Assembly (NCBI GenBank): GCA_019058445.1
Contig: JAHPZA010000006.1
Span: 128,001-192,000, forward strand
Length of the DNA stretch: 64,000 nt
Source: Promethearchaeota archaeon
GTDB lineage: Archaea > Asgardarchaeota > Lokiarchaeia > Sigyniarchaeales > SOKP01
Reading direction: 5' to 3'
Position 1 is the stretch's first letter. Each line of letters opens with the position of its first letter. Below are positions 34,872-61,275 of the stretch, piece by piece. The notes beneath the pieces are model-generated. The model had not been told where the DNA came from and did no database searches. It worked only from the letters and a program-made list of their open reading frames with translations. Position numbers and translations under genes: made by a program.

Positions 34872-35987
34872 TTAATCAGCTGTTAATTTTATAGGGGGCA
34901 CAAAAACATATCTCTGACCTGTTCTTTCCAAATGAATTGCTTCTTCTGGACAATGATGAGCACACACTCCGCACCCTATACATTTATCTTCGTTTACTTC
35001 TGCAACTGTATCTACTAATTCGATGGTTTCCATAGGACACATCTCAACACATGTTCCACAACCGATACAATCTTCCCTATTCACTTTCGCTAAATAGGAG
35101 GTTGATGTAAAAAATGGCGAAGCACCTCGATAATATAGTTCGAAACCCCCACAACAACACTTACAGCAGTTGCATATCGCTTCTATTTCTCTCTTAGGAT
35201 CTAAATGCACGTGAAACACGCGATGGACGAGTGCTTCATTTTCTGCCTGACGCAATATTTTTATTGTCTCCTCTTTTGAGATTGGTTGCGCAAAACCTTG
35301 TTCTACTGCGTGTTTAGCACCCTTACCTAAAAGTAAACAATTAAGCTTTTCATCAGTAACTTTACAAGGATTATCAACAAGATCTTTCTCGTGTCGGCAA
35401 TAGCAATTCGTTAACGCAATCAACTCATAATCATCAAGCAGATTAATAATATTTTCGCCAGGAATTACTTCTTCCTGTCCAACTTTAACCTCTTTCTCAA
35501 CGGGAACAACGCGGGCAGTTGGCATCTCTCTAATTTTTTTGAATTGCGAAGTTATAGCATCATAATTTTTTTGAGTTCTATCGGTCATCTCATCAAATAA
35601 TTTTTCAAATAAATGGGCTATTATTTTCTGTTTTTCTCCAGTTTCACCTTTCATCATAGTATATTCGAAAATTCCAGGGAAAGGGCCCAGGAGTCTATAA
35701 ACATCCATTCCCGTAGTTCTACTTTGAGATTTAACAAGTACCCCACCTGCTAATAACTCCTTGAGTAATCTTTTTACATCTTTTTCCTCAAATTCACCCT
35801 CTGTTCTTTCTAAAATTTGAGCCATATTCAATGAGGGTTTTCTAAAATGTAAAAGGAGTCTCGCTTGTTCTTCATTGATTAAATTTTGTAATATTTCTAT
35901 GATAATTCTATCATAATCCTTAGGAAATGGAACTGCTCCAGCTGTAGCAACTACACGGACAACTTTTTGCCATAGTTTTTCTGACAT
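34872..35987 (-). CDS. 4Fe-4S dicluster protein with CxCR and CNCCxCCC motifs
   Basis: CYCRH, CNCCKCCC and two CxxCxxCxxxCP motifs. Confidence 0.88.
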   Translation of the reverse strand: MSEKLWQKVVRVVATAGAVPFPKDYDRIIIEILQNLINEEQARLLLHFRKPSLNMAQILERTEGEFEEKDVKRLLKELLAGGVLVKSQSRTTGMDVYRLLGPFPGIFEYTMMKGETGEKQKIIAHLFEKLFDEMTDRTQKNYDAITSQFKKIREMPTARVVPVEKEVKVGQEEVIPGENIINLLDDYELIALTNCYCRHEKDLVDNPCKVTDEKLNCLLLGKGAKHAVEQGFAQPISKEETIKILRQAENEALVHRVFHVHLDPKREIEAICNCCKCCCGGFELYYRGASPFFTSTSYLAKVNREDCIGCGTCVEMCPMETIELVDTVAEVNEDKCIGCGVCAHHCPEEAIHLERTGQRYVFVPPIKLTAD

Positions 35988-36187: not shown

Positions 36188-38230
36188 TTATATACTATTA
36201 CCCATTTTATAACCTCGAGCAACAGCTTCCATTACCGTTTCTGGTTTACGAGCATCTCCGATTTTCTCTACTTTAATAGTACCTAGTTGCTTGATTTCTT
36301 TATAAAGAGCATCGTTCGGTTCGACCCCGGTAGCATAATAGATATAATCTATATCACTAATTGCGTTTTCTTTACCCGAAGAGTCTGAATAATTTACATA
36401 ATTTTCGCCGATTTCAGTGACTTTTACACTTGTAAGGAATTTCACACCTAAAGCATCGCATTTATCAAGAAGTACCCATTTCGTAGTCCTTCCTAACGCA
36501 GATCCTAATTTTGGTAACATTTCAAGAACGGTAACCTTATTCCTTCCCTTATGCATCATATCTAACGCAATTTGAGGCTCTAAGGCCTTATAGAATGTAA
36601 GAAAATCAAATGCTTCACGGCTTAATGTTCCATATTTTGCAATGTATATTGCTAATTCTATACCAGTGGCTCCGCCTCCTATAATAACATTGTTCTTACC
36701 AACTGGAGCATCACCGCTTAAAGCATCATTTGCCCAATATACATTTGCTCTGTCAATACCGGGAATAGGAGGTTTTATGGGATTTGAACCAGTGGCGACA
36801 AATGCAACGTCAGGATTGAATTCTTTTACTATATCAATAGTGACATTTTGTTGGAAATGTACATTGATGCCGTATTTCTGAATCCAATAGTTATAATTAT
36901 CTATCATACGTTTAAATTCGTTTCTTCCTGGTGGAATCCAGATTATGTTTAATAACCCGCCAATTTTATCATCCTTCTCAAAAATATGAACATCATGTCC
37001 TCTAATTGCCGCTATTCTCGCAGCCTCTAATCCTCCTGCTCCTGCTCCAATAATCATAACTTTTTTCTTTTCTTTCAATGGTTTCAGTTCAGTTCGGGCT
37101 TCATTTCCCGCTCGAGCATTCCTTAAACACGTGACAGGCATCATCCTGAATACCTGGTCAAAGCATCCTTGATTGCAGCCAATACAGTTCATTATATCTC
37201 TTAATTCACCCTTTTGAGCTTTCATTGGCAGATAAGGATCAGCAATTAACCCTCTTCCAATACAAATAGCATCAGCTTTTCCGGCCATTAAAACTTGTTC
37301 GGCGAGCTCAGGGTTGTTAATTCTATTGGAAGAAAATATAGGAATAGATACACGTTTATGAATATTTTCAGCTAGGTATGTATAACATCCTTCTGGAACA
37401 TCCATTGTTAATTGTGGTGTTTTTGTTTCATGCCAACCACCTGTTACGTTGAAATAATCTAAATATTTACCTAATTCTTCTGCAATAACTACTTTTTCCT
37501 TATATGTATTGCTGCCTGGAACAAAATCATCTCCAGAAATTCGATAGCCAAGAGGGATATCGTCTACTTTAGAACGCATTAATTCAATGGTTTCAATCGG
37601 GAATCTTAAACGATTTTCAAGATCGCCCCCATATTTATCAGTTCTCTTGTTAGTTTTTGGGGAACAAAACTGATCGGTTAAATAACCAGCATTTCCGCAA
37701 ATCTCTACTGCATCGAAGCCTGCTTTCTTAGCTCTAATTGTAGCGTCGGCAAAAGCCTCTTGTTCACGCTTTATATCTTCAAGACTCATTTCCTTAGGAG
37801 TGGTCTTACTAAAATTACTATAAACTGCAGAGGGGGCAATAGGTGTTCTGCCAATTATCTGTGGGAATGCGTTTAGGCCTCAATGGTAAATCCATTTCGA
37901 GGAAGCCCCGCCATGGTATAATTGGCAACAGATCTTTACATCATCTCGAGCATTGTGTACGGCTTCAGTTAATTTCTGTAAATCAGGAATAAATTTATCG
38001 TCATCAACTGCAATCATCGATGGTAAACCCTTTGCATAAACGTCTACATAACACCCTCCTACAATTAGCATTCCAGCACCTCCCTTAGCCCTTTCAACGT
38101 AAAAATCTATCAATTTGTCAGTGATAAACCCATTTTTTGCCAAGTTGAGATGCATCGCAGGCATTATAATACGATTAGACACATCCATATCCTTTATTTT
38201 AAAAGGAGTAAATAGTTTAAAGAACTTCAT
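36188..38230 (-). CDS. NADH:flavin oxidoreductase / 2,4-dienoyl-CoA reductase (FadH-like), 670 aa after removal of a 30-nt intron; join(complement(37903..38230),complement(36188..37872))
   Basis: OYE barrel (NRIIMPAMH, ERAKGG, AGFDAVE, NKRTDKYGG), CIGCNQGC and two Rossmann motifs. Both ORF-track fragments are in one frame, separated only by a TGA inside the BHB-flanked insert. Confidence 0.9.
37873..37902 (-). other. bulge-helix-bulge (tRNA-type) intron, 30 nt, in FadH-like gene
   Basis: mRNA: GCG GGGC UU^C CUC GA AAUGG AUUUA CCAUU GAG GCCU AA^A CGC. Complete outer helix, 4-bp central helix and two 3-nt bulges; the spliced sequence reads HGGAYAFP. Confidence 0.88.
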
Positions 38231-39388: not shown

Positions 39389-40489
39389 ATGTCAGATAAG
39401 ATGTGGTATAACCTTGCCAGAAAGATTTTAAGATCTGGGGGACCTCCAGTCCCTGTTAATGAGACACTAATTGATTTACTAAAAACAGTTTTAGACGAAA
39501 ATGAAGAACAAGTGCAATTTCTTTTACAATTTAGTAAGCCCCTTAGATTAGATCAAATCAAGGAAAAGGTAGCTTTAGATAATGACACCCTAAACAAAAT
39601 GCTGGATGATTTAATGCATGTTGGACTGCTAACTGGAATTCCAAGTAGAAGTACCGGAGTTATGATATATCGTTTAGTCGCTTTTTTACCTGGTTTACTT
39701 GAATTCACGCTTATGAGAGGAGAAACTGGGGAAAAACAAAAGAAATTGGCACAAATATGGGATAAGCTATTTAAAGAAGGAGCTGAAATGCTTCAAAAGA
39801 ATTTTGAGATTGCCATGGAAGCTTATAAGAATGCTCCTGCGATTGATAGAGTTGTTCCAGTTGAAGAACAAATAGATCCACAAGAAGAGAAGATTATTCC
39901 AGTTGAAGAAGTGCATAAAATCGTTGATAGATATGATGATATTGGGGTATCTTATTGTTATTGTAGACATAGAAAAGACTTGCTTAATGATCCATGTGAG
40001 GTTGATGCCCCACGACATAATTGTTTGAGTTTTGGCAGGACAGCGAAATTTGCTATAGATTACGACTTTGCCGAGCGAATAACTAAGGAGGAAGCATTAA
40101 AGTTATTGAGAGAGGCCGAAGATTTGGGTTTGGTTCATAAGACATTTCATGTAAGAGGAAATCCAGAAATGGAAGAATTAGCGATATGTAATTGTTGTAA
40201 ATGCTGTTGCGGGAGTCTGTCTGCATATCATAAAGGTACGGGCCCCATGCACACTCTATCTTCCTATATGGCAAAAATCAATAAAGATAAGTGTGTTGGT
40301 TGCGGTACGTGTGTTGAAAAATGTCCGATGGAAGCAATTGAACTAATTAATAATGTAGCGAAGCTTAATGCTGCTAAATGTATTGGATGTGGAGTGTGCG
40401 CACATCTTTGCCCAGAAAAAGCGATAAAATTAACCAGAACTGGATTGCGGGATATATTTATCATTCCTCAGCAATCTACGGCTAATTAA
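39389..40489 (+). CDS. 4Fe-4S dicluster protein (paralog of 34872-35987)
   Basis: CYCRH, CNCCKCCC and two CxxCxxCxxxCP motifs. Confidence 0.88.
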   Translation: MSDKMWYNLARKILRSGGPPVPVNETLIDLLKTVLDENEEQVQFLLQFSKPLRLDQIKEKVALDNDTLNKMLDDLMHVGLLTGIPSRSTGVMIYRLVAFLPGLLEFTLMRGETGEKQKKLAQIWDKLFKEGAEMLQKNFEIAMEAYKNAPAIDRVVPVEEQIDPQEEKIIPVEEVHKIVDRYDDIGVSYCYCRHRKDLLNDPCEVDAPRHNCLSFGRTAKFAIDYDFAERITKEEALKLLREAEDLGLVHKTFHVRGNPEMEELAICNCCKCCCGSLSAYHKGTGPMHTLSSYMAKINKDKCVGCGTCVEKCPMEAIELINNVAKLNAAKCIGCGVCAHLCPEKAIKLTRTGLRDIFIIPQQSTAN

Positions 40490-59447: not shown

Positions 59448-59951
59448 TTAAGCACCTCCCTCGTATTCTGGTTTAGCAATCCATCTTTCATACTCATCTT
59501 CAGGTACAAAAAAGAAATCCGTCATTTTACCTTCTCTGTTTTTGGAAAATACCGCTTTAACTCTTCGTCCTTTTTTAACTTTTGAGGGAACTAGATTTTC
59601 TGAAAATATTCCTTGAAATAAAGCAGTGTCAGCTCCATCTAATTTTATAAAACCTATAGAATAGGGTACCGATTTTATAAACGCAGAAGTTGTATACCAA
59701 ACGATAGTGCTAACCTCAATCGTTCCTGTTTGTTTCATTTCAATCCATTCGGTAGGCGAATAACATTCTGAGCAATTAATTCTTGGAGGCATCCATATTT
59801 TCCCGCAATTTGAATTAGTGCATTTAGTTCCTAACAACTTTTTATTGTTCATGACCTCAATAAAGAACTTAGATTGTCCTCCCATCGTGTATTTATAGTT
59901 AATTTTAATTATATCCCTTATTTCATGTGATTGAAAATCTTGCTTGCTCAT
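59448..59951 (-). CDS. DUF35 Zn-ribbon/OB-fold protein
   Basis: GTKC....C..PPRINCSEC and KLDGAD; ATGA overlap with the thiolase stop. Confidence 0.9.
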   Translation of the reverse strand: MSKQDFQSHEIRDIIKINYKYTMGGQSKFFIEVMNNKKLLGTKCTNSNCGKIWMPPRINCSECYSPTEWIEMKQTGTIEVSTIVWYTTSAFIKSVPYSIGFIKLDGADTALFQGIFSENLVPSKVKKGRRVKAVFSKNREGKMTDFFFVPEDEYERWIAKPEYEGGA

Positions 59952-61275
59952 GGTTGTTTCAATCCCTCCTCATTCGTCATTACAATAATCGCAGCATATG
60001 CTGCTCCAGGACCTCCAATTGAGTGCGCTATAGCCCTGCCTTTTTCAATTGTTACTTGGTGCTTACCAGCATCTTCTCGAAGTTGTAGTGCTGCTTCTCC
60101 TGTGCTCATAATCCCTGTAGCACCTACAGCGTGACCGCATCCAATCAATCCTCCTGATGGGCAACATGGTACTTCACCATTAATCCATGGCCCTTCTCCT
60201 GGTTTTTCAAAGCTATTTTCAATCCAAGGACCTCCTTCTCCAAAAGGAACAAATCCCAATTCTTCATACGATATAACCTCTTGCCCGCTAAATGCATCAT
60301 GCAGTTCTGCTAAGTCAACTTGTTGCTTTATTTTATTATAATCAAGTCCTGCCATTTTATAAGCTACTTTAGCTGCATTAATATTTGAATATAATCTTCC
60401 CATATCTTCTCTATTACCTATAAAACAGTCAGTATTCGCCGCACCTACACCCGTAATCCAAATTGGTTTTTCAATACCTAATTCCTTAACTTTTTCTTCT
60501 GGTGCTAGAATTAAGGCCGCTGATGCTTCTGAGTAAAGACAACAATCTAACATTTTAAAAGGATAACAAATAATCCTCGAATTCAAGACATCTTCAATTG
60601 TTAAATCCATCGGAGACTGCGCTTTAGGATTAAGCATTGCGTTTCCATGGTTTTTAACGCTAACAATAGCCAAAATTAACTAAACGTTAAAATTTTAAGC
60701 CATATGCTCTTCAGTTGGATTTCCAAATTCCTCAAAATGAGCATTAACCATAGAAACGTAAGAACTAGCTGCCATCATCCCCATAGGATACTCATAAGTC
60801 AAATCTGCTGAATATGCGATGGCATTGAGCACTTCTGGTGTTGTTGTACCTGTTTAAACTTATTAGGGATATCCTAATTGATTTGTTCATCGTAACAATC
60901 GTTACATTTTTCCAGACCAAGACATAGGCATAGGTCTGACAACCCAGAAGCAACTTCAGCATAAGCCATCCTTACAGTATAGCCGCCTGTAGCACCTCCT
61001 GAGGCAATCCGGGTACCTGGCTTATCATTCATCCCGATGTAACTATTAGTAAAAATATCCGGCATGAATTGCCGTTCAAACAGCTCGTTATAAATCCCAT
61101 ACACTGTTGATTCCAAGTCTTTGTGCGTAATTTGTGCTCCGTTCTTATTGGCATCGTCAAGCGCCAATTTTGTCGCGTCATAAGCCAGCTCAAAATAGGT
61201 CTTATCCAAATATCTTGCTCTAAAAGGTGTTATTCCTACACCTATTATCGCTACTTTTCTCACTTTATTTTTCAC
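59948..61275 (-). CDS. thiolase-fold protein (no canonical Cys), 422 aa after removal of two introns; join(complement(60883..61275),complement(60696..60853),complement(59948..60665))
   Basis: Exon 1 has KVAIIGVG, ASGGATGG and EK. The hidden middle exon reads TGTTTPEVLNAIAYSADLTYEYPMGMMAASSYVSMVNAHFEEFGNPTEEHMA. Exon 3 has VSVKNH, ELHDAF and GHAVGATG. Confidence 0.88.
60666..60695 (-). other. BHB-type intron, 30 nt (thiolase intron 2)
   Basis: mRNA: AU GGCU UA^A AAUUUUAAC GUUUA GUUAAUUUU GGCU AU^U GU. The unspliced frame has UAA (spanning the 5' junction) and UAG; the spliced sequence reads EHMAYVSVKNH. Confidence 0.75.
60854..60882 (-). other. BHB/BHL-type intron, 29 nt (thiolase intron 1)
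   Basis: mRNA: GAAC AA^A UCA AUUAGG AUAUC CCUAAU AA GUUU AA^A CAGG. Removal fixes both a stop and a frameshift; the spliced sequence reads DCYDEQTGTTTPEV. Confidence 0.8.

What the first reader, a model, noticed from the sequence alone, without database searches (positions are those of the whole stretch)
37873..37902. Canonical BHB intron in the FadH-like reductase, right after the conserved QLxHxG motif
mRNA: GCG-GGGC-UU^C-CUC-GA-AAUGG-AUUUA-CCAUU-GAG-GCCU-AA^A-CGC. The outer helix is GCG/CGC, the central helix GGGC/GCCU, the bulges UUC and AAA, and the inner helices CUC/GAG and AAUGG/CCAUU. The insert is in frame but carries UGA (SSKWIYH*GLN). Canonical cleavage creates a new Tyr codon (U|AC), giving QLYHGGAYAFPQIIG and a 670-aa protein of FadH-like size. 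This is the cleanest of the three cases.
Basis: partly seen in the sequence, partly recalled or inferred. Interest (0 to 1): 0.92.

Follow-up and report, generated by a model that had tools for sequence, protein, structure and literature searches.

The report
tRNA-type intron in Asgard reductase gene
A 30-base insert shaped exactly like the introns that archaea cut out of tRNAs interrupts a metabolic enzyme gene of a Loki-type Asgard archaeon. Comparison with about 75 relatives shows it almost certainly has to be spliced out of the messenger RNA, which published work documents for only two other archaeal genes.

Summary

- **The insert.** Window 37873-37902 (minus strand) is a 30-nt insert carrying an in-frame TGA. 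It sits in an otherwise intact FadH/old-yellow-enzyme-type reductase gene (36188-38230).
- **The motif.** With its exon flanks it draws a strict hBHBh' motif: 3-bp outer helix, 4-bp central helix, two 3-nt bulges and a 3+5-bp inner hairpin.
- **Orthologs.** All orthologs whose sequence covers the site (about 29 from related genomes and 46 more Promethearchaeota records) lack exactly these 30 nt. Only a cut after the second base of each bulge recreates their invariant Tyr (QLYHGGAYAFPQIIG).
- **A second lineage.** An independent ENA assembly about 5% diverged keeps the same insert, with one change in a bulge. All 5 substitutions between the TGA and the next start codon are synonymous, so that stretch is translated.
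- **Machinery and positive control.** The genome encodes EndA and RtcB. The same cut rule turns three other 29-30-nt motifs into intact tRNA genes.
- **Rejected reading.** Selenocysteine is rejected, because no ortholog has the 10-residue segment.
- **Wider pattern.** Similar inserts split a thiolase and an EF-2 paralog, and some are shared between species.
- **Not shown.** There is no RNA evidence.

This scan has reported the same phenomenon in other Asgard genomes. In the papers I could search, only cbf5 and HVO_1309 are described as spliced this way.

The parts
36188..38230 (-). Whole interrupted gene: FadH / enoate-reductase-type flavoenzyme (Oxidored_FMN + Pyr_redox_2). It is 670 aa after removal of the intron.
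   Evidence: Translation. Pfam PF00724 at 227 bits and PF07992 at 114 bits. Orthologs up to 88% identical.
37903..38230 (-). Exon 1 (codons 1-109 plus the first base, U, of the Tyr codon).
37873..37902 (-). 30-nt BHB intron. It consists of 1 bulge base, a 23-nt hairpin, a 4-nt strand complementary to exon 1 and 2 bulge bases.
   Evidence: Absent from every ortholog that covers the site. Present with one bulge substitution in a second assembly.
37880..37882 (-). In-frame TGA inside the intron, lying in the 3' arm of the inner helix.
37869..37911 (-). Complete hBHBh' motif including its exonic parts: outer helix GCG/CGC and the central-helix strand GGGC.
36188..37872 (-). Exon 2 (the AC of the Tyr codon through the stop codon).
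   Evidence: The stretch 37790-37872, which lies before the first in-frame start codon, shows 5 of 5 synonymous changes against the ENA lineage.

Best explanation
This is a genuine bulge-helix-bulge (tRNA-type) intron inside the coding sequence of a FadH-like reductase gene of a Promethearchaeota (Loki-type Asgard) archaeon.

Proposed mechanism:
1. The pre-mRNA folds so that exon 1 (GCG-GGGC-UU) and exon 2 (A-CGC) pair with each other and with the 3' end of the insert.
2. The splicing endonuclease EndA cuts after the second base of each 3-nt bulge.
3. RtcB joins the exons, creating the Tyr codon U|AC.
4. The joined message encodes the full 670-aa enzyme.

Shown here: the insert and its shape, the exact match of the cut sites to the homology-defined ends of the insert, persistence of the insert in a second lineage with selection on the downstream exon, presence of EndA and RtcB, and tRNA genes of the same genome carrying introns of the same size and design.

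Inferred: that cutting and joining actually happen on this mRNA.
For: 1. About 29 orthologs from 40 related genomes and 46 of 46 further Promethearchaeota orthologs that cover the site lack exactly 30 nt. They read QLYHxGxY with an invariant Tyr. The DNA alignment places the gap at GCNT|AC.
2. Only one pair of ends restores the Tyr, and it is the canonical BHB cut pair. The chance of a strict motif at a given site and length is about 1e-4.
3. ENA assembly ERZ23486230 (L113) is about 5% diverged and carries the same insert. Its single substitution is at intron base 30, in the 3' bulge, so all pairs are untouched.
4. In the 33 codons between the TGA and the first in-frame start codon, 5 of 5 differences are synonymous third-position changes.
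5. The rest of the gene has no lesion.
6. EndA (68 bits) and RtcB (574 bits) are present.
7. Positive control: applying the same cut rule to three other strict 29-30-nt motifs makes ARAGORN recognise tRNA-Ile, tRNA-Val and tRNA-Trp, none of which it finds in the uncut DNA, where one locus is miscalled tRNA-Leu.
8. The same design interrupts other genes:
   - the thiolase, twice in this window, with one insert shared with G002 and the other with G008;
   - an EF-2 paralog, where removal gives the ortholog sequence;
   - orthologs of this same reductase in other species, at a different site.
Against: - No RNA-level evidence exists.
- The computed minimum-energy fold is not the BHB. A register shift is 2.4-2.6 kcal/mol more stable, and the BHB class is about 4% of the ensemble.
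- The intron is confined to this species-level lineage, so a very recent disabling insertion cannot be strictly excluded.
- A 50%-identical intact paralog (C3:374831-376825) could cover for loss of the gene.
- Motif-based genome-wide scans showed no excess over a mirrored control. A modest excess appeared only among low-energy motifs near 30 nt (10 against 4).
Confidence: 0.88

Rival explanations
1. A recent 30-nt insertion has simply killed the gene. The gene is a young pseudogene, and the BHB-like shape is incidental or is not used.
For: The insert is absent from all species-level relatives. An intact paralog exists. The BHB is not the minimum-energy fold.
Against: The insert ends coincide to the base with canonical cut sites (about 1e-4 by chance). 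A lineage diverged by 5% keeps the insert with its helices intact. That lineage shows only synonymous change in the stretch that would be untranslated. There is no second lesion in 2 kb. Other genes carry the same design, and some of those inserts are shared across species.
Confidence: 0.06
2. UGA is read as selenocysteine or otherwise read through, and the 10 extra residues (SSKWIYH-U-GLN) stay in the protein.
For: The genome has selenocysteine machinery: SelD with its own in-frame TGA and SepSecS at 380 bits. The insert is in frame.
Against: No ortholog has any residue here, let alone Cys or Sec. The insert would sit inside the conserved QLxHxGxY active-site loop. No tRNA-Sec was found over the Rfam threshold. 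The frameshifting 29-nt inserts of the same design in the thiolase cannot be read through.
Confidence: 0.02
3. Ribosomes hop over the insert by programmed translational bypassing, as in phage T4 gene 60.
For: There is a hairpin with a stop codon inside a coding gap, and the insert is short.
Against: The Tyr codon is split by the insert (U|AC), so hopping between whole codons cannot recreate it. Taking off at GCU and landing at GCA would delete the invariant Tyr (read). No bypass case is known to me in archaea (own knowledge).
Confidence: 0.02

Closest known systems
cbf5 pre-mRNA intron of Crenarchaeota (Aeropyrum, Sulfolobales, Desulfurococcales; PMC2738675; reviewed in PMC10485636)
   Same: A BHB-type intron lies inside an archaeal protein-coding sequence. 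It is cut by the tRNA splicing endonuclease and the exons are then ligated. Presence or absence is lineage-specific. The hosts have an (alpha-beta)2-type EndA, and PMC5829648 reports that Asgard archaea share this type.
   Different: The phylum (Asgard) and the gene (a metabolic flavoenzyme) are different. The review describes the cbf5 motif as relaxed, whereas this one is a strict hBHBh'. This intron is confined to one species-level lineage, and many other genes of the same genome carry inserts of the same 29-30-nt design. Splicing here is not shown experimentally.
HVO_1309 mRNA of Haloferax volcanii (PMC7714728; PMC10485636)
   Same: An mRNA substrate of the archaeal splicing endonuclease.
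   Different: The host is a euryarchaeon with an alpha2 enzyme. It is a single case found by a substrate screen, not a coding-sequence interruption recognised by comparing orthologs.
Non-canonical tRNA introns of Asgard archaea (PMC11291895; bioRxiv 10.64898/2026.10.13.758758)
   Same: The same motif, the same 29-30-nt size and the same hairpin design as tRNA introns of this very genome. Gains are recent and repeated, and the route of arrival is unknown.
   Different: The host is an mRNA, so the exon halves of the motif must also encode protein. Neither paper reports protein-gene cases.
HAC1/XBP1 unconventional mRNA splicing in eukaryotes (own knowledge; XBP1 intron mentioned in bioRxiv 10.1101/2025.06.17.660180)
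   Same: A small intron is cut out of an mRNA by a protein endonuclease at stem-loops and the ends are joined by a tRNA ligase (RtcB in animals).
   Different: The nuclease is IRE1, not EndA/TSEN. That splicing is regulated, and no regulation is known for the intron described here.

Membership tests
Archaeal BHB intron (EndA/RtcB-spliced) | [quoted passage not shown] | tested here: met
   GGGC/GCCU flanked by bulges UUC and AAA. This is not the minimum-energy fold; the BHB class is about 4% of the ensemble.
Archaeal BHB intron (EndA/RtcB-spliced) | Flanking helices h and h' (strict hBHBh' form) | tested here: met
   Outer helix GCG/CGC (3 bp). Inner helices CUC/GAG and AAUGG/CCAUU.
Archaeal BHB intron (EndA/RtcB-spliced) | Cutting after the 2nd base of each bulge yields a functional joined RNA | tested here: met
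   The junction U|AC restores the invariant Tyr and the ortholog sequence. The same rule restores three tRNA genes in this genome.
Archaeal BHB intron (EndA/RtcB-spliced) | Splicing endonuclease and RNA ligase encoded by the host | tested here: met
   PF01974 at 68 bits. RtcB PF01139 at 574 bits.
Archaeal BHB intron (EndA/RtcB-spliced) | Excision demonstrated at the RNA level | not testable with these tools
   No transcript data. A search for short same-species protein fragments lacking the insert found none above 81% identity.
Selenoprotein gene (UGA = Sec) | Cys or Sec aligned with the UGA in homologs | tested here: not met
   The whole 10-residue segment is absent from about 75 orthologs.
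Selenoprotein gene (UGA = Sec) | SECIS element serving the gene | not tested
   The Rfam gathering-threshold scan of the window gave no hit. I know of no archaeal SECIS model in Rfam (own knowledge, not checked).
FadH / 2-enoate reductase-type flavoenzymes | N-terminal Oxidored_FMN barrel plus C-terminal Pyr_redox_2 domain | tested here: met
   PF00724 over residues 5-341 and PF07992 over residues 389-654. Substrate not testable.
Programmed translational bypass (T4 gene 60 type) | Matched take-off and landing codons that give the conserved product | tested here: not met
   The Tyr codon is split by the insert, and no codon pair recreates HGGAYAF (read).

The most novel reading that the evidence does not exclude
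This intron is one recent product of an ongoing spread of 29-34-nt tRNA-type micro-introns into protein-coding genes across this Promethearchaeota genus.

- Gains occur at species or strain level.
- They recur in the same genes: two sites in this reductase family and at least three in the thiolase.
- They favour exon sites that can already form the outer helix.
- They can shift position: the EF-2 paralog intron lies 6 nt apart in two species.

On this reading, enzymatic mRNA splicing would be routine in the closest archaeal relatives of eukaryotes.
Probability: 0.6. Interest if true: 0.92.

Novelty: new member of a known kind. Interest (0 to 1): 0.8.

Why it matters
In the papers I could search, protein-enzyme splicing of archaeal mRNA is documented for two genes only. 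The 2023 review PMC10485636 says more probably remain to be found.

Here an ordinary metabolic gene of an Asgard archaeon needs such splicing, and other genes of the same genome carry inserts of the same design. This has three consequences:

- **Annotation.** Gene callers split or discard these genes. This one is on record as 116-aa and 533-aa fragments.
- **Intron gain.** The intron is young and datable. It is present in two lineages about 5% apart and absent from all sampled sister species, so it gives direct access to how BHB introns are gained.
- **Eukaryote origins.** The lineage closest to eukaryotes tolerates interrupted protein genes and repairs them at the RNA level.

Tried and rejected
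- **Strict motif scan.** A genome-wide scan for strict hBHBh' motifs, with a mirrored-topology control, gave 102,478 against 102,227 hits. There was no enrichment, so the shape alone is uninformative in this AT-rich genome.
- **ORF-rescue tests.** Deleting a motif and asking whether two long open frames merge gave equal counts for real and mirrored motifs, at both strict and relaxed settings. Junctions between neighbouring genes dominate the result.
- **Hairpin-filtered counts.** No peak appeared at 30 nt.
- **Paralog-based census.** blastp of spliced junction peptides, and tblastn for split hits or stop-containing gaps, gave a short candidate list. Distant paralogs place insert ends too loosely: even the target was mis-sized as 60 nt. 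I therefore give no genome-wide count.
- **Low-energy motifs.** Motifs of -7 kcal/mol or lower show only a modest excess at 30 nt, 10 against 4.
- **Copies of the intron.** It has no other copy in the genome. Two exact-pattern scans of metagenome contigs found nothing.
- **Spliced-transcript-derived fragments.** None were found among short proteins.
- **Other readings of the TGA.** An alternative genetic code is rejected because nearly all other genes in the window are open under table 11. Selenocysteine and ribosome hopping were considered and rejected (see rivals).
- **Literature.** One cited paper, PMC3064391, is not held in the library.

Full report
**What is there.** On the minus strand, 36188-38230 encodes a two-domain flavoenzyme of the FadH / 2-enoate reductase type. 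It has Oxidored_FMN at 227 bits and Pyr_redox_2 at 114 bits. The frame is open throughout except for one TGA at 37882-37880, ten codons after the family's QLYHGG motif.

- outer helix GCG (37911-37909) with CGC (37871-37869);
- central helix GGGC with GCCU;
- 3-nt bulges UUC and AAA;
- inner helices CUC/GAG and AAUGG/CCAUU, closed by loop AUUUA.

Cutting after the second base of each bulge removes 37873-37902 (30 nt) and joins U to AC.

**The organism.**
- The window lies in a 4.6-Mb assembly of 10 contigs with 31% G+C.
- ARAGORN finds only 5 uninterrupted tRNA genes, and 23 when introns are allowed.
- The genome encodes a tRNA-intron endonuclease, RtcB ligase and selenocysteine machinery.
- Public records holding the closest orthologs are titled Promethearchaeota or Promethearchaeia, the Loki-type Asgard archaea.

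**The decisive test: orthologs.** A six-frame search of 40 related genomes found full-length orthologs up to 88% identical. They have no internal stop and span 2007-2013 nt, against 2040 here. Extracting the site showed that every ortholog reads QLYH-x-G-x-Y followed directly by (A/T/S)(F/M/Y/L)PQIIG. Several are identical to the predicted spliced product, QLYHGGAYAFPQIIGRTPIAPS.

A second, independent set of 52 loci from the species-representative genome collection gave the same result. All 46 of 46 that cover the site have a 22-residue segment with no insert. The DNA alignment puts a clean 30-column gap between GCNT and AC.

Shifting the ends by one base in either direction gives Asn or Ser instead of the invariant Tyr. 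Homology therefore fixes the ends to the base, and they are the canonical BHB cut sites.

**How likely is this by chance?** A motif as strict as this (3+4+3 pairs, G-U allowed, 3-nt bulges) occurs 999 times at length 30 on both strands, about 1.1e-4 per position. A mirrored topology that EndA should not cut is as frequent, at 948. The shape is therefore not evidence on its own in this AT-rich genome. The coincidence of the shape with a homology-defined 30-nt insertion has roughly that 1e-4 probability. By constrained folding energy the target is the second best of the 999.

**A second lineage keeps the intron.** An exact look-up showed that the 116-aa N-terminal fragment has a cluster mate from an ENA metagenome assembly, ERZ23486230. 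The two proteins are 95% identical and both end in ...GGASSKWIYH. At the DNA level the two copies differ at about 5% of positions.

| Region | Differences between the two lineages |
|---|---|
| Intron (30 nt) | 1 substitution, at its last base, in the 3' bulge; all helices and the junction codon untouched |
| Exon 1 | 16 codon differences, 10 of them synonymous |
| 33 codons between the TGA and the first in-frame start codon (ATG at 37789) | 5 differences, all synonymous third-position changes |

If the TGA ended translation, the third region would be untranslated and would not show this pattern. Assuming about 1 in 4 random changes is synonymous, the chance is about 0.001. The stop is therefore bypassed in both lineages, and the insert has survived their divergence with its pairing intact.

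**A positive control inside the same genome.** Among the best-folding strict motifs of 29-30 nt, three lie in what look like tRNA arms. Removing them by the same rule makes ARAGORN call intact tRNA-Ile(GAU), tRNA-Val(UAC) and tRNA-Trp(CCA). The uncut DNA gives no call, or in one case a wrong one. The organism's endonuclease must therefore handle introns of this size and design: one bulge base, a 22-23-nt hairpin, four bases complementary to the upstream exon and two bulge bases.

**The same design in other genes.**
- **Thiolase.** The thiolase gene in this window (59948-61275, minus strand) has a 29-nt insert at 60854-60882 and a 30-nt insert at 60666-60695. In six same-genus orthologs (G003's copy is cut short and does not reach the second site):
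  - G002 shares the first insert, with two substitutions;
  - G008 shares the second, with four substitutions, one turning U-A into U-G and one creating a pair;
  - G005 has three inserts of unrelated sequence, at or near those two sites and at a new one;
  - G004 and G006 have none, and G003 has none at the first site;
  - the exons stay intact in all.
- **EF-2 paralog.** The paralog at C10:682100-684277 carries a 30-nt insert with a TAG. Removing it gives QMTDSDDEEQERGITI, as in seven orthologs. G006 has a partly similar 30-nt insert 6 nt further downstream.
- **Chelatase.** A chelatase gene (C9:269043-269072) regains MNPEEGELRPQ.
- **This reductase in other species.** Orthologs carry a 29-nt insert at another site, GGWHE|TKxPQ. 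In G021 it draws UGG-CAUG-AA|A ... CAUG-AA|A-CCA, and its removal restores the conserved sequence. Database proteins that stop in the insert right after that motif come from contigs of up to 63 kb.

**Rivals.**
- **Selenocysteine** was worth considering because the machinery is present. It fails because no homolog has the segment at all, and the frameshifting 29-nt inserts cannot be explained that way.
- **A young pseudogene** is hard to square with the second lineage and the synonymous-only pattern.
- **Ribosome hopping** cannot rebuild a codon that the insert splits.
- **An alternative genetic code** is excluded by the open frames of the neighbouring genes.

**Weak points.**
- There are no RNA data.
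- The thermodynamic model prefers a register shift (UUC pairing with GAG) by about 2.5 kcal/mol. The BHB class is about 4% of the free ensemble, so the enzyme would have to capture or induce the BHB fold.
- My attempts at a genome-wide count failed, for the reasons given under tried and rejected. I can vouch only for the individual cases named above.

**Comparison with what is known.** The held literature documents endonuclease-mediated mRNA splicing in archaea for cbf5 in Crenarchaeota (PMC2738675) and HVO_1309 in Haloferax. A 2023 review states that at least two genes are spliced this way and that more are likely (PMC10485636). Asgard genomes are known for very many tRNA introns (PMC11291895; bioRxiv 10.64898/2026.10.13.758758). 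Asgard archaea are also reported to have a heterotetrameric EndA with the loop linked to broad specificity (PMC5829648). Six full-text searches found no report of BHB introns in Asgard protein genes. Subscription journals are mostly not covered.

Earlier notes of this scan describe the same phenomenon in this genome and in other Asgard genomes. I treated these as leads and re-tested three of them here.

[quoted passage not shown] It is a new member of a rare known kind, in a lineage where it matters.

Noticed in passing
window 60854-60882 and 60666-60695 (minus strand; thiolase gene 59948-61275): Two more short inserts (29 and 30 nt) of the same design. The first is shared with relative G002 and the second with G008. 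G005 has three inserts of other sequence. G004 and G006 have none, and G003 (copy cut short) has none at the first site. The 29-nt insert lacks an outer helix, so it is a relaxed form.
   Followed up: yes
G000 C10:682100-684277 (L047/L114); G006 ortholog L118: The EF-2 paralog is split by a 30-nt insert with a TAG, and its removal gives the ortholog sequence. G006 has a partly similar 30-nt insert 6 nt downstream, next to a near-repeat in the exon (ACAGAT / TCAGAT). This may be intron sliding.
   Followed up: partly
L036 (G021:C208) about 1477-1505; proteins P0005, P0006: Orthologs of the target reductase in other Promethearchaeota carry a 29-nt BHB insert at a different site (GGWHE|TKxPQ), where the exon itself supplies UGG...CCA and a palindromic CAUG. 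This suggests independent gain in the same gene family.
   Followed up: partly
G000 C6:1249090-1249119, C1:26033-26062, C10:453243-453271: These are 29-30-nt strict BHB introns in tRNA-Ile, tRNA-Val (both in the T-loop) and tRNA-Trp. The genes are invisible to ARAGORN until the intron is removed.
   Followed up: yes
G000 C6:1272337-1272367 (+), C6:396802-396833 (-), C6:877163-877216 (-), C9:269043-269072 (-): Further candidate mRNA introns (29-32 nt). They lie in a P-loop GTPase (IGIVGKP|SSGKST), in a gene reading AAPEY|MEQKATIDA across the joint, in a gene with paralog support for a 29-nt frameshifting insert, and in a chelatase (MNPE|EGELRPQ).
   Followed up: partly
G000 C10:463853-464689 (L001); C1:27020-27126: SelD carries an in-frame TGA, so it is probably a selenoprotein, and SepSecS is present. 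The Rfam tRNA-Sec model finds nothing.
   Followed up: no
window 34872-35987 (-) and 39389-40489 (+): Two paralogous ORFs of about 370 aa with CNCCKCCCG and 2x CxxCxxCxxxCP motifs flank the reductase and an enoyl-CoA hydratase-like gene. This looks like a lipid or acyl-CoA catabolism neighbourhood with uncharacterised iron-sulfur partners.
   Followed up: no
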